A stretch of 50,971 nucleotides of DNA from Escherichia phage herni: the sequence record NC_049823.1; one strand, given 5' to 3'. A model generated the notes under the pieces. That model was not told the DNA's origin. It did not search any database and saw only the letters and a list, made by a program, of their open reading frames with translations. The stretch's first letter is position 1; the number at the start of each line of letters is the position of its first letter. Shown here piece after piece: positions 4,084 through 48,873 of the stretch. The position numbers and the translations under genes were made by a program.

Positions 4084-4557
4084 TTAGCAATTAGTGCTTT
4101 CAGGTTTATACAGGAATCCGCCAGGTTCATAATCTGACATTCTTACCACTCGCAACATTTCACGCTTATCACATCTCTTTGTGAGCGGTTTGCCATTGGA
4201 ATCAAATCGCAGGTCTGGACGACAGAATGATGCGCGATAGCCTTGACATCCATATTTTTTGTAATCGTTATGCACCTTTTGAGCGCCAGCGGCTGAAATC
4301 ATACCACGAACGCGCCACTGATTTACAGTTTGCTGGCTAACGTTAAGACGTTTTGCCATTGCTGACACGCTTCCGTAATACTCAATAAGGATGTCAAGTC
4401 GCGCTTTTAGTCCGGCGCGCACTTCATCTTTTAAAACATAGTATCCCGTAGGGCGCTTGCGCTTCTTCTTGTCCTTGCCTCTTCGAGTTCCGTTATTGCC
4501 ATTAATTGTTCGCTTGTCAATCTTTCCTGTTGATACTGCGATTCGTTGCTCTTTCAT
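4084..4557 (-). CDS. helix-turn-helix DNA-binding protein
   Basis: ORF track; predicted HTH segment AKRLNVSQQTVNQWRVRGMIS; very basic N-terminus; GGAGA Shine-Dalgarno. Confidence 0.55.
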   Translation of the reverse strand: MKEQRIAVSTGKIDKRTINGNNGTRRGKDKKKRKRPTGYYVLKDEVRAGLKARLDILIEYYGSVSAMAKRLNVSQQTVNQWRVRGMISAAGAQKVHNDYKKYGCQGYRASFCRPDLRFDSNGKPLTKRCDKREMLRVVRMSDYEPGGFLYKPESTNC

Positions 4558-8112: not shown

Positions 8113-8155
8113 CACTTTTTGTTAAAAAGCCCGGCCCTGTGTCGGGCATAATTAT
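8107..8155 (+). promoter_or_regulatory. conserved intergenic motif, hairpin GCCCG-n9-CGGGC, ATAATT
   Basis: Motif copy; co-oriented with the gene at 8185. Confidence 0.45.
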
Positions 8156-11885: not shown

Positions 11886-13470
11886 TTACCCCAGCAATGT
11901 TGGATTTACAAAAACAACGCCATTAATCACACAAATATAATTTCTTTCTTCAAGCATCGGCAGCAGTTGCGTTTCCATACGCTTCATTACGCCAGCCTGG
12001 CCAACAAACGGCTTAACTTTTCGTGCAGCCTCATATATGGCGCGAACATTCAAGATCCCATTGTTAGCCTTACCGTGTCGAGTGATAATCTCGATTAGTT
12101 TACCCATTTCAGCATCATCACCAGCATAGCCAGAAGCGTTGGCGGAGCTAATGTATGTTTTGCTCAACTCGCTAAACATCAGCAGTGCTTCTTGAACGGT
12201 TTCAACTTCAATCTCTTTCGACTTCTGAGGGTATCCACCAGGATTAAACCAGTCGCGGATAGTGTGCAAAACCGAAGCAATCCTGATCACCTGCTTATCC
12301 ATTTTGCCAAGAGCACCGCGCAGCATTGTATGCGAATACTTTCCGCCATCAGCAAGGTGCGGCTCCATCTCCTGACGAGCCATGTTAAGAACTCGCATTG
12401 CGGATTTGCTGATCTTAAGCTGGATGTTTGATTCACTCATGATGTTATGGATCAGCTTAAAATATTGACTTTTCAGTTCTCCATCAACAGGCTCATAAGT
12501 AGAATCACCGTTATCATCAACAAACTTTCGACGACCTAAAAATGATTCCTCACGCACAAGCAAATAACGCTCACTCACACCGATACCGCGCGATCCTGCA
12601 TCCATGATGGCATTGATTGTTTCATCCTGGGCAATCACCGCCATACAGCCAAGAGCTTTAAAACTCATATTGTTGTCAGCGTTTGCACGAGCTATAGAAA
12701 CATGACCATGATCCCATGCTTTCAGCACAAGTTCGCTGTTGGTTTTACGTTCGCTATTAGCATATGTCAGACCTAAAAGGCTGTTAATACTCGTTGCCTC
12801 GTCTGAAATCACAGCAAAGTTACCCTGGCGATTGTTGATTCTTGCAAGTCCTTCCGGCGTGGTGTCGGACACAGGGAAAACAATGTCACACATCTTTTCC
12901 AATTTTTCTTCCAGATCTTCTTTCTCCTGGTACAGAGATTCCATATCAGCGCCGGAGCGCTCGCTTTTCATCTCTTTTGCAAGACCTGCCAACTTTGCCT
13001 GAATCTTTTTTCTTTCCTTCTTTCGCTGATCGTTAATTCTTTCCACTTCTGCAACCATTGGAGCAAGTGCCAGGCTGTTAACGGCAGATTTACCAGTTGA
13101 AGGAGGCTGACTTGTGACAACATAAAGAGCGGTCGGCTGATCCGTTCCGTGATACTCAACCGTGAAGCGTCCAAGCATTGCAGCAGACACGCAGCCGATA
13201 AAATGCATATATGCCGATGATTCAGGGAACTGAACTGAGCGAGCAATGTTGCGCGCCAACTTACCAACAACATCAACATCATTGCCAAGAGAAATTACAG
13301 GGTAGCGATCATTTCCGTTATTAACATCATTAACCTCACCCCAAAAGCTGGACGATTGACGGTATCCGTTTGCCTGAATGGACACGCGCACCGGAGACAA
13401 TCCTTGTGCATCAGCTAATTCGATAATTTGTTTTGGTGTTAGTTTGTTGGTTTCAAACGAAAAATTCATT
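11886..13470 (-). CDS. P-loop ATPase, DnaB/DUF3987-like (possible helicase or primase-associated)
   Basis: Walker A QPPSTGKSAV resembling the DnaB H1 motif, Walker B-like AVISDEA; start at MNFSFETNKL (ATG 13470, AAGGAG Shine-Dalgarno). Confidence 0.55.
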
Positions 13471-17300: not shown

Positions 17301-17569
17301 TTCTTGATCTCCTCGGCAATAAACTTCAGGACTTTGCGCAAAAAAACTTCGTTGTTGATGGTTGCTGGCAATTCCTCTTTCACTTCTTGCGGCAGATAGA
17401 TATTGTCGTGCCAGGTTAAGCAATCGTAATTGATACGATAAGAGCAAAGCCACTCGCAATCGTTATCCGCTTCCCAAATGCAGAGTTGCAGAACATCGCC
17501 AAAATCCTCAACAGTCAGATCCAGACCGTGACGCTTTGCAAAGTTGAAAGTGGTTTTGCTGATGTTCAT
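17297..17569 (-). CDS. hypothetical protein (90 aa), first gene of the leftward early block
   Basis: ORF track; AGGAGA Shine-Dalgarno. Confidence 0.5.
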   Translation of the reverse strand: MNISKTTFNFAKRHGLDLTVEDFGDVLQLCIWEADNDCEWLCSYRINYDCLTWHDNIYLPQEVKEELPATINNEVFLRKVLKFIAEEIKK

Positions 17570-17631
17570 TGCTATCTCCTGATGGGTATCTCGTTTCGAT
17601 GTGTCTAATGTACCCGATCAGGGCAATTCAG

Positions 17632-17652
17632 TTTTAACAAAAAGTGCTATTT
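17632..17652 (-). promoter_or_regulatory. conserved intergenic motif (minus orientation) heading the leftward block
   Basis: TTTTAACAAAAAGTGCTATTT about 60 nt upstream of the gene starting at 17569. Confidence 0.45.
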
Positions 17653-17791
17653 GCTTACTGGTTATTATTCCACCTATTCCATTAATCAGGAATAACAGGA
17701 ATAAATCATTCGCGATCACCTGGATTGTGAGACTTTGAGTTTGATCAATTTTAATCAAGTGATTAACTTTTTGTGTGGAGGGGATAGAGAA

Positions 17792-17869
17792 ATGTGGCCC
17801 TCTTGCGTCCTTTCCTGCAATCCTGGCGCGCACAACTGTTATTTCTGTTCCTCGTGTTATCTCAAATAA
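17792..17869 (+). CDS. possible 25-aa Cys-rich micro-ORF
   Basis: MWPSCVLSCNPGAHNCYFCSSCYLK with GGAGG Shine-Dalgarno 10 nt upstream; function unknown. Confidence 0.2.
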   Translation: MWPSCVLSCNPGAHNCYFCSSCYLK

Positions 17870-17891
17870 GCCTCCGCACTTTGAGATAACA
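17855..17891. repeat. perfect 12-bp inverted repeat TGTTATCTCAAA / TTTGAGATAACA with 13-nt loop
   Basis: Read directly from sequence; overlaps the stop codon of the micro-ORF. Confidence 0.6.
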
Positions 17892-17934
17892 GGATTGGCG
17901 TTCACCAACAAAAAGAACAAAATAAAATTTATAT

Positions 17935-18115
17935 ATATACCCATAAAATCAATAAGTTAGTTATATATGTATTTATATTTGTTATTTACTGTTGTGCTTG
18001 TTCTGTGGGTATATGGTGGTGTGGTATTGTTTGTGGTGATATATATGTGTGATTGTATATTTTTTAATCAATTGTGATGTGTGGTGATTTTTGTATGTAT
18101 ATATATGGGTATGAA
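17935..18115. repeat. AT-rich then TG-rich low-complexity element (copy A), homologous to 47450-47650
   Basis: AAATCAATAAGTTAG..TATATAT.TATTTATATTTGTT core followed by (TG)n-like tracts. Confidence 0.5.
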
Positions 18116-18239
18116 GTAATCCTCCGTCAACCAAGTCAACAAGGTCATTTTTAACATAAAAACCAATGACTTAACTGAAGCATTTTGTTATCTTTAAACG
18201 CGCCACGTGCCAAAAATTGTTGTTAAAACACAAAATATA

Positions 18240-18268
18240 TTGACATGCAGGAAAGGCAAGGCAATAAT
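18240..18268 (+). promoter_or_regulatory. sigma70-like promoter (TTGACA, 17 nt, AATAAT)
   Basis: Near-consensus -35 and spacer length about 37 nt upstream of the gene at 18305. Confidence 0.5.
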
Positions 18269-18304
18269 TCATCCAGTTTAAACGCAACAAAAGGAGTAGA
18301 TGCT

Positions 18305-18790
18305 ATGAGCGAAGAAAATATTAGCACCATGTCGCGTAGTGAGTTTTGCGATATGCTTCGCGACTTGGGCGCGGCAATTGGTAGTGGTGAGCGTAATAAT
18401 GTATTCATGCCAGCACTTTTTTTGTGCGCTAATGTGGAGAACGGCGAAGCAATTACGGCATCGTACATGCGCCAAGTTGTCAACCGTGTGCCAGAAGTAA
18501 AGCAAAAAGGCGTGATCAGCATTAAGCGAAAGGTGACTGATGAGGGTGATGGCTTTGTGTTTACGCTCACCGAAGCCAAAAGCAAGCCTCGCGTTCTGAC
18601 TGGTGAAGAAATCGACGAGATCGCAGAAAAGCGCGCAGAGAAGGCGGTAAGCAAAATTCTTAATCACCTGGTAAACGTAATGCCAAATATCACAGACATG
18701 GAAGGCGACAAACTTGCTGGAGCGTGTGAGGCTATCGGGCGCTACCAGGATATGATTCGTAAACTCGCTGGAGGAAAAGAGGATGAATAA
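18305..18790 (+). CDS. hypothetical protein (161 aa), first gene of the rightward small-gene block
   Basis: Start at MSEENIS with AAGGAG Shine-Dalgarno; the track start 18245 lies in the promoter. Confidence 0.55.
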   Translation: MSEENISTMSRSEFCDMLRDLGAAIGSGERNNVFMPALFLCANVENGEAITASYMRQVVNRVPEVKQKGVISIKRKVTDEGDGFVFTLTEAKSKPRVLTGEEIDEIAEKRAEKAVSKILNHLVNVMPNITDMEGDKLAGACEAIGRYQDMIRKLAGGKEDE

Positions 18791-19043
18791 GGCATTAATT
18801 GGAGTTTTGATTGCAATTGCTACCCTGACCGGATGCGAAAAGGCATCTGAATCAACAGTTGTCGTAGGAGTGGAGTCAGATTTTAAAGTCGATCGCCTGT
18901 TTACTGTTGATGGATGCACTGCGTACCGATTCTATGACAACGGTCGAGCAATCTATTACACCAATTGTAAGGGAGCAACGGATAGCACATACCGCAGCGG
19001 CAAAAACGTAATGCACCAACAAGTCACAACAGATATGAAATAG
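18783..19043 (+). CDS. lipoprotein (86 aa)
   Basis: Signal peptide plus lipobox LTGC; stop embedded in the next motif copy. Confidence 0.6.
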   Translation: MNKALIGVLIAIATLTGCEKASESTVVVGVESDFKVDRLFTVDGCTAYRFYDNGRAIYYTNCKGATDSTYRSGKNVMHQQVTTDMK

Positions 19044-19085
19044 CACTTTTTGTTAAAATGCCAGGTGCGAATCCTGGCATAATAG
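19038..19085 (+). promoter_or_regulatory. conserved intergenic motif, hairpin GCCAGG-n7-CCTGGC, CATAAT
   Basis: Motif copy co-oriented with the gene at 19116. Confidence 0.45.
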
Positions 19086-30035: not shown

Positions 30036-30799
30036 TGAAAGTGAAGGGCGTCGTTAAACAATGGCGCTTTCCTGAAGCAAGCGAGCGGCAATTTAGCCGC
30101 TCAATTCAGGAGGCAATTAGAGATCTTGTGGTTCTCATGCGCAAGCGAACAAAAGCGATGAAGTTTGACGCAACAGATAATGAGATCAACAGCGCAGAAG
30201 ATGAAATTAACAGCCTGGCAACTGACCTTATAGCTGGCATTGTTTCCACTCTTCCTGCAATCGCGTTGACCATTTATAAATTCAATGCGAAGCAGTTTAT
30301 CAATGTTGCCAAGTCAACTGGCGGAAAGGATAACACGGCGGTAATTGTTTTGATCGCGATTGGCGCTAACGCTAACGAGGAGTGGTATCAGACGCTTTAC
30401 GGTCAATGGCACGGCCTTACAGAATCATCGCTAAGGAAGCTATTCACAAATATTGTGTCTGACTGGTCAACAAACATTCGCAATGCAAACTTTCGCGGAA
30501 GCAATGATAAACAGGTTAATGATCTTGCAGAAAAGAGATTTGCTGTTTATAGCTCTTGGGGTAAAACTAGATCAGAAAACATTATCGGCGCGTGGAATAG
30601 TCGCCTGATGCGCCAGCGCCTTTATGATGCTAAGGTGACTCATTATTTCTGGCATGGGATGTTAGATGATAGAGAGCGATTGCAGCATGTATTATGGGAA
30701 GGTAAAAGAATAGCGCTTGATGCAATTCATGATTTCCCTGGTGAGCCGTGGGGTTGCCGTTGCTGGGCGATTCCAGATTGGAATAATAAAGGAGAGTAA
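30035..30799 (+). CDS. head morphogenesis (minor head) protein
   Basis: 254 aa, coupled to the portal stop; assignment is positional. Confidence 0.45.
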   Translation: MKVKGVVKQWRFPEASERQFSRSIQEAIRDLVVLMRKRTKAMKFDATDNEINSAEDEINSLATDLIAGIVSTLPAIALTIYKFNAKQFINVAKSTGGKDNTAVIVLIAIGANANEEWYQTLYGQWHGLTESSLRKLFTNIVSDWSTNIRNANFRGSNDKQVNDLAEKRFAVYSSWGKTRSENIIGAWNSRLMRQRLYDAKVTHYFWHGMLDDRERLQHVLWEGKRIALDAIHDFPGEPWGCRCWAIPDWNNKGE

Positions 30800-32939: not shown

Positions 32940-32957
32940 TTTAACAAAAAATGCTAT
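32940..32957 (-). promoter_or_regulatory. conserved intergenic motif in inverted orientation relative to the downstream capsid gene
   Basis: TTTAACAAAAAATGCTAT on the plus strand. Confidence 0.35.
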
Positions 32958-35968: not shown

Positions 35969-36631
35969 ATGCATTTACCAAATGGATCGCAAATTTTCGT
36001 TGAGAGCAATCGCGGAAGCGCTATTGAGGCAACGGCAGTATCAAACGCTAAAGATCCTGTATTCACCGTTGCATCTGGCGGAACTGCGTACAAGAAAGGT
36101 GATTATGTTATCATCACTGCGTCTTCTTGGGGTAAGCTGATTGATCGTGTTATGCGTGTAAAGACTAACGGTGAAGAAACAAGCGTAACTCTTGAGGGTG
36201 TTGATACTACCGATCAGAACGTGTTCCCGACTGGCGGCACTGCATCTTTTGCTAAGATTGATGCATGGACAGAGATCCCTTGCGTTCAGGATTTGTCGCA
36301 GGACGGCGGCGAACAGCAATACTATACTTATCAGTGTTTGGCAGACGATCAGGAACAGCAGTTACCTACATATAAGAGCGCTGTTTCTCTTACTTACACT
36401 TTTGCGCACGAATACGATAACGCGATCTATCCGCTATTGCGTGCAGCAGACGAATCCGGCGAAGTGACAGCGCTTCGCATGTATGTACCGAAAGCGAAAG
36501 AGATGCGTTGCTGGGCTGGTGTCCTTTCGTTTAACGAAATCCCACAGACCACAGTTAACGAAATGGAAACTGTTTCCCTGTCTGTATCCCTGAAAGGTCG
36601 ATTCACCTTCCTACCTTCTCAAGTAGCATAA
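35969..36631 (+). CDS. major tail protein
   Basis: 220 aa immediately upstream of the chaperone and tape measure genes; strong terminator downstream. Confidence 0.6.
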   Translation: MHLPNGSQIFVESNRGSAIEATAVSNAKDPVFTVASGGTAYKKGDYVIITASSWGKLIDRVMRVKTNGEETSVTLEGVDTTDQNVFPTGGTASFAKIDAWTEIPCVQDLSQDGGEQQYYTYQCLADDQEQQLPTYKSAVSLTYTFAHEYDNAIYPLLRAADESGEVTALRMYVPKAKEMRCWAGVLSFNEIPQTTVNEMETVSLSVSLKGRFTFLPSQVA

Positions 36632-47082: not shown

Positions 47083-47310
47083 TTACATACTGCAATCAGC
47101 GTTTTTAAAGTTATCAATACTTACCCACTGAAAATTAAACGGATAGCCAGCCTTAACAAGAGTGCGGTCGCCAACTCGTTTTACTCCAAAAATAGCAACT
47201 GAATACTGCATACCGCTATTTTCATAAATAGCCGTGCATTCACGCTTAGGCATATTTGCGCAACCAGTCAGGGTTGCGGCTGCAATCAAAACGGCGATTA
47301 ATTTTTTCAT
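47083..47310 (-). CDS. small outer-membrane lipoprotein, possibly Cor-like superinfection exclusion protein
   Basis: 75 aa; signal peptide with lipobox LTGC; size and position next to tail genes as for Cor-type proteins; functional assignment is inference. Confidence 0.45.
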   Translation of the reverse strand: MKKLIAVLIAAATLTGCANMPKRECTAIYENSGMQYSVAIFGVKRVGDRTLVKAGYPFNFQWVSIDNFKNADCSM

Positions 47311-47366
47311 CTTGGTATCTCCTTAGTTGTTGTTGGTTGCAACTATACACGATCTTGCGGCGGTCG

Positions 47367-47385
47367 TTTAGCAAAAAGTGCTATT
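47367..47385 (-). promoter_or_regulatory. conserved intergenic motif (minus orientation) upstream of the lipoprotein gene
   Basis: TTTAGCAAAAAGTGCTATT. Confidence 0.4.
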
Positions 47386-47449
47386 CTGTTCTTTTTGTTT
47401 TCCTGCGTTCTCAAATCTGCGGAGGCGTAAATTTAGCGCAAAAAGTGAG

Positions 47450-47650
47450 CAACAATAGAGCGTAATAAATACAGATAAATATATATACATATATATAAAT
47501 CAATAAGTTAGCAGTATATATATTTATATTTGTTTTTTCTTGTTATCTATGTTTTGTGTGATTTTGTGTGTCTGGTAATTTTTATGTGGTTGTGTATGTG
47601 TCAGTGCTTGTGTGTGTCTATATATCCATATCCGGCGCAAATGGAGGAAC
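47450..47650. repeat. AT-rich then TG-rich low-complexity element (copy B), homologous to 17935-18115
   Basis: AAATCAATAAGTTAGCAGTATATATATTTATATTTGTT followed by TG-rich tracts. Confidence 0.5.
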
Positions 47651-47763
47651 AAGAGAACAAAAAGACAACAAAGATATTTATCAATCACTTACATGTAAAT
47701 TTTGTTATCCGATTCGTCTGGAACGTTGTTAGAACAGAAAAAACAAAATAACTGTTGACTAAA

Positions 47764-47791
47764 CGCATTAAATAGCTAAAATGCAGGCATA
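47764..47791 (+). promoter_or_regulatory. sigma70-like promoter (TTGACT, 16 nt, TAAAAT)
   Basis: Near-consensus hexamers about 20 nt upstream of the gene at 47812. Confidence 0.5.
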
Positions 47792-47811: not shown

Positions 47812-48873
47812 ATGAATAAGTTTATGGCGTACACCAGCGAAGAAATGAGCAACGAGCTTTATCACGATCCAGAAGCGTGGACGGCTGATTATGTTAGCGG
47901 TTCAAGCCTGGCAGAGATTTACAGCACATGCCCGGCAGCGTGGAAGTTCAAGCCGCGTGACGACAAGAGCAAGGCGCTAGTTTTTGGTACGCAGTCGCAT
48001 ACCAACTTTGAAAGCAAGGAGCTTTTCGAAAAAACTTATCGCCGTGCGCCAGCGCCAGAAGACTTTAAGGATCTGATAACCAGCCAAACGGCGCTTGCTG
48101 CAAAGCTGAAATCATTTGGCCTGAAAGGTACAACCGGAAAGACTTACCCCGAACTTATAAAAATGATGGTTGACTGCGGAGAAGACCTTAACGTCATGTG
48201 GTTAATCGACATGATCGCAGAAAGTCAGGCCAGGGCCGATGGGGTTCAGTTAATCGAGGCTAAAGATTACGATTCGTGCGTGGCAATGCGCCAGGTTCTG
48301 GAATCAATACCGGAACATAACGCATGTATGAATAGCAAGACGGCACAGCGTGAATTATCGTTGTTCGGTGAAATTAACGGCGTAAAAGTCAAAGTGCGAT
48401 GCGATCACGTTGACGTAACAAAGAACGTCACCGCAACGCTGATTGATGGTTACGATGAAAAAGGCCAGCCGATTTGCCGCGATATTATTTATCCAGAGGC
48501 CATTGTGATCACAGACTACAAAACTACAATGAGCGCGAATCCGGCTGAGTTTATGCGCCTGGCTTACAATCACGGCTATTATTTGAAAATGGCGTTGCAA
48601 TGTGATTTATTCAGAAAAGCGTATCCAGAAGAAAAGCGACCTATAGTTGTGCGACTGTTAGCGCAAGAGAAGAAAGAGCCTTATTTGCCGTTGGCTTTCC
48701 GAATGAATAGCGAGCAGTTGAAGATCGGGCGCATTCAGTACATGAGCGTGATTAACCAGTTTGCCATGTGCCAGCAACATGACGTTTGGCCTTCGTATTC
48801 AAACGGTGAGCCTGAGGTTTGCCTTGATACTCCTGATTGGGTGCGCCGCCAGTTTAAGCAATATCTTATTTAA
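47812..48873 (+). CDS. PD-(D/E)XK recombination exonuclease
   Basis: RCDHVD and IVITDYKTT nuclease motifs; sits upstream of the Erf and SSB genes. Confidence 0.6.
   Translation: MNKFMAYTSEEMSNELYHDPEAWTADYVSGSSLAEIYSTCPAAWKFKPRDDKSKALVFGTQSHTNFESKELFEKTYRRAPAPEDFKDLITSQTALAAKLKSFGLKGTTGKTYPELIKMMVDCGEDLNVMWLIDMIAESQARADGVQLIEAKDYDSCVAMRQVLESIPEHNACMNSKTAQRELSLFGEINGVKVKVRCDHVDVTKNVTATLIDGYDEKGQPICRDIIYPEAIVITDYKTTMSANPAEFMRLAYNHGYYLKMALQCDLFRKAYPEEKRPIVVRLLAQEKKEPYLPLAFRMNSEQLKIGRIQYMSVINQFAMCQQHDVWPSYSNGEPEVCLDTPDWVRRQFKQYLI

What the first reader, a model, noticed from the sequence alone, without database searches (positions are those of the whole stretch)
47450..47650. Second copy of the AT/TG-rich element at the second divergent junction (copy B)
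Core AAATCAATAAGTTAGCAGTATATATATTTATATTTGTT followed by TGTG-rich tracts, upstream of a strong sigma70-like promoter (47764-47791) that heads the exonuclease-Erf-SSB operon. It is in the same orientation as copy A, about 29.5 kb away. Two direct repeats flanking the structural module could also be substrates for recombination.
Basis: seen in the sequence. Interest (0 to 1): 0.55.

Follow-up and report, generated by a model that had tools for sequence, protein, structure and literature searches.

The report
Paired origin-like early control modules
The AT/TG-rich stretch is real: it is the easily melted centre of one of two related ~410-base non-coding modules found in every T1-family phage examined, each ending in an early promoter, and it is the best unannotated candidate for this family's unknown replication origin.

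Summary
The window is the whole genome of Escherichia phage herni (T1-like, Hanrivervirus). Copy B and copy A share far more similarity than composition explains (z = 22.6 and 11.6 against two kinds of shuffle). Both belong to one ~410-440 nt module: 47382-47789 and 17836-18275, both on the + strand, and exactly two per genome in herni, TLS and T1.

The module has a fixed order:
- phased TGTT-type short repeats;
- a (TA)n core holding an IHF-consensus site;
- a T-rich, C-poor tract;
- inverted short repeats;
- a second IHF-like site;
- an A-rich stretch and a canonical sigma70 promoter.

The two cores are the least stable duplex DNA in both herni and T1. The short repeats differ between lineages. 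There is no conserved ORF, no Rfam match and no excess RNA structure.

My best reading is an iteron/IHF/unwinding-element replication origin fused to an early promoter's operator array (0.40). A purely transcriptional control region is nearly as likely (0.35). I found no description of the module in the papers searched.

The parts
47382..47789 (+). Module B as a whole.
   Evidence: nhmmer with a profile of 16 A/B copies: E = 4.7e-72, profile positions 5-409.
47387..47411 (+). Left set of phased short repeats: TGTTCTT, TGTTTTC, CGTTCTC, 9 nt apart.
   Evidence: The TGTT columns are conserved in at least 90% of 16 copies from several genera.
47480..47529 (.). (TA)n core: two (TA)n arms, 47480-47497 and 47514-47529, which can pair with each other and flank IHF-like site 1. 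This is the least stable duplex in the genome.
   Evidence: TATATATA occurs 7 times in the genome, 6 of them in the two modules.
47498..47510 (+). IHF-consensus site 1, AATCAATAAGTTA. It is identical in copy A at 17947-17959.
   Evidence: An exact consensus sits at this module position in 21 of 40 distinct copies, always on the + strand.
47531..47619 (+). TGTT repeats at 47531, 47541 and 47551 (10 nt apart) grading into a T-rich, C-poor TG tract.
   Evidence: T is 0.39-0.49 against A 0.15-0.24 in all 16 copies examined, while the sequence itself is poorly conserved between genera.
47619..47659 (+). Right (TA)n (CTATATATCC), the CCGGCGCAAAT motif, then inverted short repeats AGGAACA (47645) and GAGAACA (47653).
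47679..47691 (+). IHF-consensus site 2, TATCAATCACTTA, followed by AATTTTGTTATCC at 47698-47710.
   Evidence: An exact consensus sits at this position in 16 of 40 copies, and most of the rest are one mismatch away.
47730..47782 (+). A-rich, UP-like stretch TAGAACAGAAAAAACAAAATAAC, then the sigma70 promoter TTGACT (47755-47760), 16-nt spacer, TAAAAT (47777-47782). It drives exo (ATG at 47812).
   Evidence: The equivalent promoter is listed as P51 in TLS. The T1 recE promoter fragment is active and is repressed by Pir and cAMP-CRP (PMC6737242).
17836..18275 (+). Module A, the paralogous copy: left repeats at 17837, 17846 and 17855; IHF site 1 at 17947-17959; TG tract about 17999-18105; degenerate IHF site 2 at 18161-18173; promoter TTGACA 18240-18245 / AATAAT 18263-18268.
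   Evidence: nhmmer E = 2e-59.
47367..47386 (-). A neighbour, not part of the module: one copy of the known 21-nt T1-family direct repeat (TTTAGCAAAAAGTGCTATTC as read on the + strand), facing cor.
   Evidence: family D6. The repeat is described for TLS in PMC11447400.

Best explanation
Copy B is the central part of one of two paralogous ~410-nt non-coding modules that every T1-family (Drexlerviridae) genome examined carries. One copy lies upstream of the early accessory-gene block (A). The other lies upstream of exo-Erf-SSB (B).

I read the module as an iteron-type replication origin fused to an early promoter. The proposed steps are:
1. Host IHF bends the DNA at two fixed, same-strand sites.
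2. A phage DNA-binding protein occupies the two sets of short, lineage-specific repeats on either side. Candidates are the Cro-like regulator Pir and/or the winged-helix tail of the MCM-like DUF3987 helicase.
3. The (TA)n / T-rich centre, the least stable duplex in the genome, opens and serves as the entry site for the phage helicase and the P4-alpha-type primase.
4. The same bound protein represses the adjacent sigma70 early promoter.

Shown here: the repeat, its anatomy, its conservation, its copy number, its duplex instability and the absence of coding or structured-RNA signal. Shown by others, in T1: the promoter-proximal 150 bp is an active promoter repressed by Pir.

Inferred: IHF binding, which protein reads the short repeats, and origin activity.
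For: - There are exactly two profile hits per genome in herni, TLS and T1, covering two subfamilies.
- The modular order is shared by 16 aligned copies from several genera.
- The two cores are the two least stable 100-200-nt windows in both herni and T1, about 5 sd from the genome mean. (TA)n runs are almost confined to them.
- Short repeats flank the core on both sides in direct and inverted orientation and change with lineage. In T1 the 7-mer TGTAACA/TGTTACA occurs 6 times, all in the two junctions.
- Across 40 distinct copies there are 37 IHF-consensus sites on the + strand and none on the - strand, all at two fixed module positions. In the herni genome, 4 of 11 such sites fall in the two gaps.
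- Within Hanrivervirus the module is more conserved (0.913) than exo third codon positions (0.881).
- The phage encodes its own initiation machinery. The primase is homologous to the P4 alpha primase part (BLASTP 5e-14). The DUF3987 helicase models with pLDDT 89 as an MCM/Orc1-Cdc6-like AAA+ protein with a C-terminal winged helix. DUF3987 has been shown to be a helicase (PMC11724360).
- Two distant phages whose helicase is 35-36% identical have the same anatomy directly upstream of a [small gene, HTH-like in one]-helicase-(primase in one)-SNF2 helicase-exo operon. The centre is AT-rich and flanked by about 16 G5-6/C5-6 runs in one, and by about 12 CTTACAT repeats in the other.
[quoted passage not shown] P4 uses two separated cis elements, ori and crr.
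- The TLS authors report finding no origin.
- T1 can persist as a stable extrachromosomal element.
Against: - Two similar copies in the same orientation is unusual for an origin.
- The module runs without a break into a promoter. Copy B is most conserved at its promoter end. Together these fit a purely transcriptional role equally well.
- There are no DnaA boxes and no GATC sites inside either module, against 278 GATC in the genome.
- In T1-like genomes the helicase gene is about 4 kb from module A rather than adjacent to it.
- The Tempevirinae short repeat (TGTT[ACT]...) carries little information and is only moderately enriched: 10 and 9 per 420 nt, against 8 and 7 in the next-best windows.
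- In T1 the junction repeat also occurs in the Pir-repressed pir promoter, which points to an operator role.
- GC skew follows gene orientation and so says nothing about replication.
- There is no replication experiment.
Confidence: 0.4

Rival explanations
1. It is a purely transcriptional control region for the two main early sigma70 promoters. Arrays of operators for the phage regulator Pir lie to the left and right of a flexible (TA)n / IHF-bent spacer. Together they form a repression loop, or an IHF-dependent upstream activating region, that switches early transcription on and then off. There is no origin function.
For: - Every copy ends in a canonical promoter.
- In TLS these are two of only three sigma70 promoters found, P01 and P51.
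- In T1, Pir represses the recE promoter and its own promoter. cAMP-CRP also represses the recE promoter.
- The two T1 fragments that Pir represses share GTTGTAAC, which belongs to the same repeat family as the T1 junction repeat.
- IHF site 2 lies about 100 nt upstream of the expected transcription start.
- In one distant phage (L190) a Pir-like HTH gene is the first gene after the equivalent region.
Against: - The third early promoter, that of pir, is Pir-repressed in T1 and works with a 23-nt gap and no module. The 400-nt module is therefore not needed for that regulation.
- The T1 recE reporter used only 150 bp upstream, which leaves out the AT/TG core, and was still active and regulated.
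- A 200-nt stretch that is the genome's extreme in duplex instability, has strand-asymmetric T-richness and lies more than 130 nt upstream of the -35 is beyond what is usual for upstream activating sequences.
Confidence: 0.35
2. It works as RNA. Leftward transcripts across the tract would be CA-rich and G-poor, which could serve as a Rho-loading site or an unstructured leader for cor and for the helicase operon. Rightward transcripts would be U/G-rich and could serve as a small RNA or an R-loop primer.
For: - There is strong strand asymmetry: C is 3-8% on the + strand in herni, and T is well above A in all 16 copies.
Against: - There is no Rfam match, even at E <= 1.
- Fold z-scores are 0.30 (+ strand) and 0.01 (- strand).
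- No conserved promoter or terminator frames the tract.
- Tract sequence is poorly conserved between genera.
- G>C skew is absent in two B copies.
Confidence: 0.07
3. It is a packaging (pac) or terminase recognition element.
For: - The TLS record starts at the pac site the authors deduced. Position 1 reads AGATTT and lies 5,876 nt from the HindIII site, against the published ~5,882. That is 121 nt left of module A.
- The T1 record and its 2.8-kb terminal repeat also begin inside junction A.
- From my own knowledge, IHF sites combined with short repeats occur in lambda cosB and in P1 pac.
Against: - Copy B, the finding in hand, has no mapped end near it and lacks the GATTG-type repeats seen to the left of module A.
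- A pac phage needs a single pac site.
- The mapped cut lies outside the shared module.
Confidence: 0.05
4. Its main role is as a recombination substrate: either direct repeats for intramolecular deletion or duplication, or a GT-rich hotspot for Erf/RecA.
For: - The copies are direct repeats flanking the structural genes.
- From my own knowledge, the GT-rich strand resembles sequences RecA prefers.
- Mosaic breakpoints between phages fall at the modules.
Against: - The longest exact match is 15 nt and there is no Chi site.
- Identity is 73%.
- There is no concerted evolution.
- By inference, the deletion product would lack all virion genes.
Confidence: 0.04
5. It is functionless AT-rich spacer DNA or a low-complexity coincidence.
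For: - The composition is low-complexity.
- The TG tract diverges between genera.
Against: - The A/B similarity has z-scores of 11.6 to 22.6.
- Two copies per genome are maintained across two subfamilies.
- The order of motifs is fixed.
- Conservation is above that of synonymous sites.
- The IHF-like sites are position- and strand-specific.
Confidence: 0.03

Closest known systems
Replication origins of phage-inducible chromosomal islands (PICI/SaPI ori)
   Same: Two sets of short iterons flank an AT-rich region proposed to be the melting site (PMC6092414). They are served by a primase and a helicase-type initiator encoded by the element itself.
   Different: - PICI ori lies just 3' of its rep gene. 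Here the module lies in divergent promoter gaps and, in T1-like genomes, about 4 kb from the helicase gene.
- There are two copies per genome.
- IHF-consensus sites are present.
- A sigma70 promoter is built into the right end.
- No binding or replication data exist for this module.
Satellite phage P4 ori and crr
   Same: - Two separated cis elements each carry 8-nt repeats (TGTTCACC/GGTGAACA) 10-11 nt apart, in both orientations, around AT-rich DNA. ori lies between divergent genes.
- The herni primase is homologous to the primase part of P4 alpha.
- TLS module A contains GTGAACAC-GTGAACAG-..GGAACA.
   Different: - The P4-like word GTGAACA is absent from the herni and T1 modules.
- The helicase here is an MCM-like DUF3987 protein, not a P4-type D5 SF3 helicase.
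- The two copies here are full paralogues 29.5 kb apart.
IHF-assisted unwinding elements of iteron plasmids and oriC (pSC101, R6K, oriC; from my own knowledge)
   Same: An IHF site lies next to a strand-asymmetric, T-rich unwinding element with initiator sites alongside. In pSC101 there are also inverted repeats at the neighbouring promoter.
   Different: - There are no DnaA boxes and no GATC cluster.
- The repeats are 6-7 nt, not 17-22 nt iterons.
- The downstream genes are exo and DUF7174, not an identified initiator.
IHF-dependent early regulatory regions (phage Mu operator region between Pe and Pc; the ilvPG upstream activating sequence; from my own knowledge)
   Same: An IHF site sits inside AT-rich, easily destabilised DNA between or upstream of sigma70 promoters. 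In Mu, multiple short degenerate repressor sites are also present.
   Different: - The module is much longer, with its core 130-330 nt upstream of the -35.
- It is duplicated.
- It is conserved across a whole virus family.
21-nt direct repeat of T1-like phages (aaATAGCACnnnTTGnTAAAA)
   Same: It is also an intergenic repeat of this phage family and its function is also unknown (PMC11447400). One copy abuts module B at 47367-47386.
   Different: It is a different element: 21 nt, about 18 copies per genome, oriented with the downstream gene. The module described here is about 410 nt, has two copies, and is not mentioned in that paper.

Membership tests
Iteron-type origin (PICI/SaPI-like, P4-like) | Two sets of short repeats flanking an AT-rich, easily melted region | tested here: met
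   The Tempevirinae repeat carries little information. The T1 repeat is specific: 6 of 6 occurrences lie in the junctions.
Iteron-type origin (PICI/SaPI-like, P4-like) | The origin lies next to the gene for its initiator or helicase | tested here: inconclusive
   Not met in herni, T1 or TLS, where the helicase gene lies about 4 kb into the leftward operon that starts at junction A. Met in the two distant relatives L190 and L192.
Iteron-type origin (PICI/SaPI-like, P4-like) | Sequence-specific binding of the repeats by the element's initiator | not testable with these tools
Iteron-type origin (PICI/SaPI-like, P4-like) | Supports autonomous or phage-dependent replication | not testable with these tools
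   This needs a plasmid replication assay or marker-frequency analysis.
oriC/DnaA-type origin | DnaA boxes (TTWTNCACA) and clustered GATC sites | tested here: not met
   There are no DnaA boxes and no GATC sites inside either module.
IHF binding site | Match to WATCARNNNNTTR with A/T-rich DNA on its 5' side | tested here: met
   Sites at 47498-47510, 47679-47691 and 17947-17959. Across 40 copies there are 37 sites on the + strand and none on the - strand, at two fixed positions. (TA)n lies immediately 5' of site 1.
IHF binding site | IHF actually binds and bends the DNA | not testable with these tools
   This needs EMSA or footprinting, or infection of ihfA/ihfB hosts.
Sigma70 promoter with upstream regulatory region | Canonical -35/-10 hexamers with a 16-18 nt spacer at the 3' end of the element, facing a gene | tested here: met
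   B: TTGACT, 16 nt, TAAAAT (10 of 12). A: TTGACA, 17 nt, AATAAT (11 of 12). The T1 recE promoter is active in reporter fusions.
Sigma70 promoter with upstream regulatory region | The AT/TG core itself is needed for promoter activity or control | not tested
   The published T1 reporter carried only 150 bp upstream and so excluded the core.
Non-coding RNA gene | Match to a known RNA family, or more structure than shuffled sequence | tested here: not met
   Rfam gave no match. Fold z-scores are 0.30 and 0.01.
Small protein gene | An ORF preserved in relatives | tested here: not met
   The 73-codon ORF at 47530-47751 is broken or shifted even within Hanrivervirus.
pac site | A unique site at the mapped packaging end | tested here: not met
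   There are two copies. The TLS and T1 record starts lie left of module A and outside the shared module, and nothing is mapped near B.
Recombination repeats | Long near-identical tracts, or signs of gene conversion between the copies | tested here: not met
   The longest exact match is 15 nt. Within-genome A-B identity (0.56) is about the same as between-genome (0.54).

The most novel reading that the evidence does not exclude
The two modules are the replication origins of the T1 family, so far unidentified, and work as a cooperating pair, as P4 ori and crr do. One phage protein reads the lineage-specific short repeats and does two jobs: it shuts off the adjacent early promoters and it licenses unwinding of the (TA)n / T-rich centre for the MCM-like DUF3987 helicase. 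Pairing of the two copies could also set copy number in the plasmid-like carrier state reported for T1.
Probability: 0.15. Interest if true: 0.75.

Novelty: new member of a known kind. Interest (0 to 1): 0.55.

Why it matters
T1 is one of the classical coliphages, and T1-like phages are widespread contaminants and candidates for phage therapy. Even so, the 2024 re-annotation of TLS reports no origin and only three sigma70 promoters.

This module gives exact coordinates for a family-wide cis element that links the two main early promoters, host IHF, the phage regulator Pir and the phage's own helicase and primase. That makes three questions directly testable: where replication starts, how early genes are switched off, and how the reported carrier state is maintained.

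It also marks a safe boundary for engineering: these roughly 400-700-nt gaps should not be treated as disposable spacer.

Tried and rejected
- An exact 14-mer scan of viral contigs for the core returned about 120 mostly chance hits in unrelated contigs. It was of no use. Protein-anchored loci worked instead.
- The gene downstream of A was too divergent an anchor and gave only 2 loci.
- Rfam at gathering and E-value thresholds, and tRNA search, found nothing.
- RNA folding of both strands showed no excess structure.
- Small ORFs in the gap are not conserved.
- Cumulative GC skew only mirrors gene orientation.
- Sequence searches of the helicase and primase against PDB gave no significant hits. 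Fold comparison was needed.
- BLASTP of P4 alpha against the helicase found no homology.
- P4-type iteron identity was rejected as a general feature. GTGAACA is in the TLS modules but not in those of herni or T1.
- Exact consensus searches for DnaA boxes and Chi, and relaxed CRP patterns, found none in either gap. GATC is absent from both modules.
- The concerted-evolution test was negative.
- I looked for a Pir operator in the herni pir promoter and found no obvious TGTT/GAACA motif.
- Literature searches for a T1-family origin, transcriptome or description of this element found only the TLS and T1-Pir papers.

Full report
**What the window is.** The 50,971-nt window is the complete genome of a T1-like siphophage (Drexlerviridae, Tempevirinae, Hanrivervirus). 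Its helicase is 100% identical to that of Escherichia phage herni, whose contig is also 50,971 nt. The region of the finding is 99.6-99.8% identical to phages egaa and G29-2. Copy B lies in the 498-nt gap between cor (- strand, 47086-47313) and exonuclease VIII (+ strand, ATG at 47812). Exo is followed by a small ORF, Erf and SSB. Copy A lies in a gap of about 680-735 nt between a leftward gene whose start is at 17569 and a rightward DUF7174 gene.

- The quoted core is at 47497-47534, and the TG-rich tract follows it.
- Copy A has the same core. The repeat finder pairs 17946-18055 with 47497-47606 at 73% identity.
- The local alignment score is 99. Dinucleotide shuffles give 23.9 +/- 3.3, and shuffles confined to 20-nt blocks give 29.9 +/- 5.9. 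Nothing else in the genome comes close.
- The two elements are the two most AT-rich and the two most C-poor 150-nt windows in the genome.
The hexamers are 47755-47760 and 47777-47782.

**The real extent and anatomy.** I collected the region upstream of exo from 45 viral contigs and the region upstream of the second methyltransferase from 15. Aligning 16 A and B copies from several genera shows one shared module of about 410 nt. Its order on the + strand is:
1. three TGTT-type repeats 9-10 nt apart;
2. a CCGCAAA-type motif;
3. inverted AACA-type repeats within an A-rich stretch;
4. (TA)n;
5. an IHF-consensus site (AAATCAATAAGTTAG in herni);
6. (TA)n again;
7. three more TGTT repeats grading into a T-rich, C-poor tract whose composition, but not sequence, is conserved;
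8. (TA)n followed by GGGG;
9. CCGCAAA again;
10. GAACA..GAACA;
11. a second IHF-like site (AATCAnnnnCTTA);
12. ATTTTGTTATC;
13. an A-rich stretch;
14. a canonical sigma70 promoter.

A profile of this alignment hits the window exactly twice, at 47382-47789 (E = 5e-72) and 17836-18275 (E = 2e-59), both on the + strand. It also hits exactly twice in TLS, and twice, weakly but collinearly, in T1. In T1 the short repeat is different. The 7-mer TGTAACA/TGTTACA occurs six times in 48.8 kb, and all six are in the two junctions.

**Properties.**
- In both herni and T1, the two cores are the two least stable 100-200-nt duplex windows, about 5 sd from the mean.
- (TA)n octamers are almost confined to them. 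The two (TA)n arms around IHF site 1 can pair with each other.
- The IHF consensus occurs 11 times in the genome (4.4 expected). Four of these are in the two gaps.
- Across 40 distinct copies there are 37 consensus sites on the + strand and none on the - strand, all at two fixed positions.
- Within Hanrivervirus the module is 0.913 identical, against 0.881 for exo third codon positions.
- The tract is T-rich (0.39-0.49 T against 0.15-0.24 A) in all 16 copies. G exceeds C in 14 of 16.
- It is not coding, has no Rfam match and has no excess RNA structure.
- It has no DnaA boxes and no Chi, no GATC within the modules, and no match to the CRP patterns tried.

**Context from the literature.**
- The TLS re-annotation (PMC11447400) lists only three sigma70 promoters. 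Two of them, P01 and P51, are the promoters at the ends of modules A and B. That paper describes the unrelated 21-nt direct repeat and says no origin-like repeats were found. It does not mention this module.
- In T1, Orf23 (Pir) is the orthologue of herni 4084-4557, a Cro/YdaS-like HTH protein. It represses its own promoter and the recE promoter and activates hol and dam. cAMP-CRP also represses the recE promoter.
- The reporters carried only 150 bp upstream, so they excluded the AT/TG core (PMC6737242).
- The two T1 fragments that Pir represses share GTTGTAAC, which belongs to the same family as the T1 junction repeat.
- T1 can persist as a stable extrachromosomal element.

**The replication machinery.**
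- The herni primase is homologous to the primase part of P4 alpha (E = 5e-14).
- The DUF3987 helicase models confidently (pLDDT 89). Its closest folds are MCM subunits and Orc1/Cdc6.
- A DUF3987 protein has been shown to be a 5'-3' helicase that works with a primase on a mobile element (PMC11724360).
- Two distant phages whose helicase is 35-36% identical have a ~600-nt divergent gap directly upstream of a replication and recombination operon. In L190 the order is small gene, helicase, SNF2 helicase, exo, with an SSB gene further down. In L192 it is small gene, helicase, primase, SNF2 helicase, exo.
- Both gaps have the same anatomy, an AT-rich centre (with (TA)n runs in L190) flanked by short repeats. 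L190 has about 16 G5-6/C5-6 runs. L192 has about 12 CTTACAT/ATGTAAG repeats, some overlapping the promoter.
- In L190 the first gene is weakly Pir-like (phmmer E = 0.004).

**Interpretation.** The anatomy is two sets of short, lineage-specific repeats around the genome's most meltable, strand-asymmetric DNA, with IHF sites, next to an autoregulated promoter. This is what iteron-type origins look like. PICI origins are described in just these terms (PMC6092414). P4 uses two separated elements, ori and crr, carrying 8-nt repeats 10-11 nt apart. I therefore rank "origin fused to an early promoter's operator array" first, at 0.40.

The purely transcriptional reading (Pir operator arrays plus IHF looping or activation) has direct experimental support for the promoter-proximal part and is nearly as likely, at 0.35. 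Its weakness is that the Pir-repressed pir promoter needs no such module and that the T1 reporter worked without the core.

The two readings are not exclusive.

**Other readings.**
- pac: the TLS record starts at its deduced pac site. Position 1 reads AGATTT, 5,876 nt from the HindIII site (published ~5,882) and 121 nt left of module A. The T1 record with its terminal repeat also starts in junction A. So pac probably lies in junction A, but outside the shared module, and copy B has nothing comparable.
- Recombination between A and B is not supported. Mosaic breakpoints between phages do fall at the modules.

**Verdict.** This is a real, conserved, functional non-coding module, and I found no description of it in the papers searched. 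It is a new example of a known kind of cis element.

Noticed in passing
window 7088, 8108, 19039, 19502, 20548, 21781, 24429 (+ strand); 11356, 13525, 14201, 16251, 16757, 17633, 47367 (as complement): A 21-nt direct repeat, AATAGCACTTTTTGTTAAAA, occurs in at least 17 copies. Nearly all point the same way as the local genes. Some are followed by a GC hairpin and then CATAAT (for example 8130-8155 and 19061-19085). Copies at 32940 and 36700 face against the surrounding + strand genes. The repeat is known from TLS and T1, and its function is open (PMC11447400).
   Followed up: partly
window 18783-19043 (+) and 47086-47313 (-): An inverted repeat (18794-18841 against 47255-47302, 79% complementary) shows that the ORF at 18783 is a cor-like lipoprotein paralogue sharing its signal-peptide region with cor. 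One lipoprotein gene therefore sits beside each module.
   Followed up: partly
window 17700-17835; T1 (L189) 48800-48836 and 1-140; TLS (L193) 1-120: Junction A carries an extra segment to the left of module A, with GATTG/TGATT-type repeats. The TLS record start (the pac site its authors deduced) and the T1 record start with its terminal repeat fall in this segment. The family's pac site probably lies here, next to but outside the repeated module.
   Followed up: partly
window 17618-17944 (-): This 108-codon ORF is annotated as a hypothetical protein in phage PGN590. It overlaps the 21-nt repeat and the left part of module A, so it is probably not a gene.
   Followed up: no
window 11886-13469 (-): The DUF3987 'helicase' models as an MCM/Orc1-Cdc6-like AAA+ protein with a C-terminal winged helix, which a separate PHROG family also matches (residues 460-547 in the 548-residue ORF numbering). 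The annotated start gives 527 residues, not the 548 of the longest ORF.
   Followed up: yes
L190 9250-9640 (Logan ERR13913517); L192 9230-9740 (JGI 3300040809): Two distant phages have origin-like gaps upstream of their helicase operon. L190 has a (TA)n centre with about 16 G5-6/C5-6 runs. L192 has about 12 CTTACAT repeats and an (AAC)12 microsatellite.
   Followed up: partly
L048 2261-2813 (Shigella phage 2019SD1): Module B is split by an insertion of about 180 nt. The record's exonuclease annotation runs over part of the module.
   Followed up: no
GenBank MG065636-MG065687 (hits): Eighteen records labelled 'Campylobacter phage' are 91-93% identical to this coliphage region. Their host assignment looks doubtful.
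   Followed up: no
T1 (L189) 30228-30392 and 36417-36581: The two T1 promoter fragments that Pir represses share GTTGTAAC and CGTAAACG. In the pir promoter these fall in the spacer as a near-palindrome (GTAAC-GTTTAC). This is a candidate Pir operator.
   Followed up: partly
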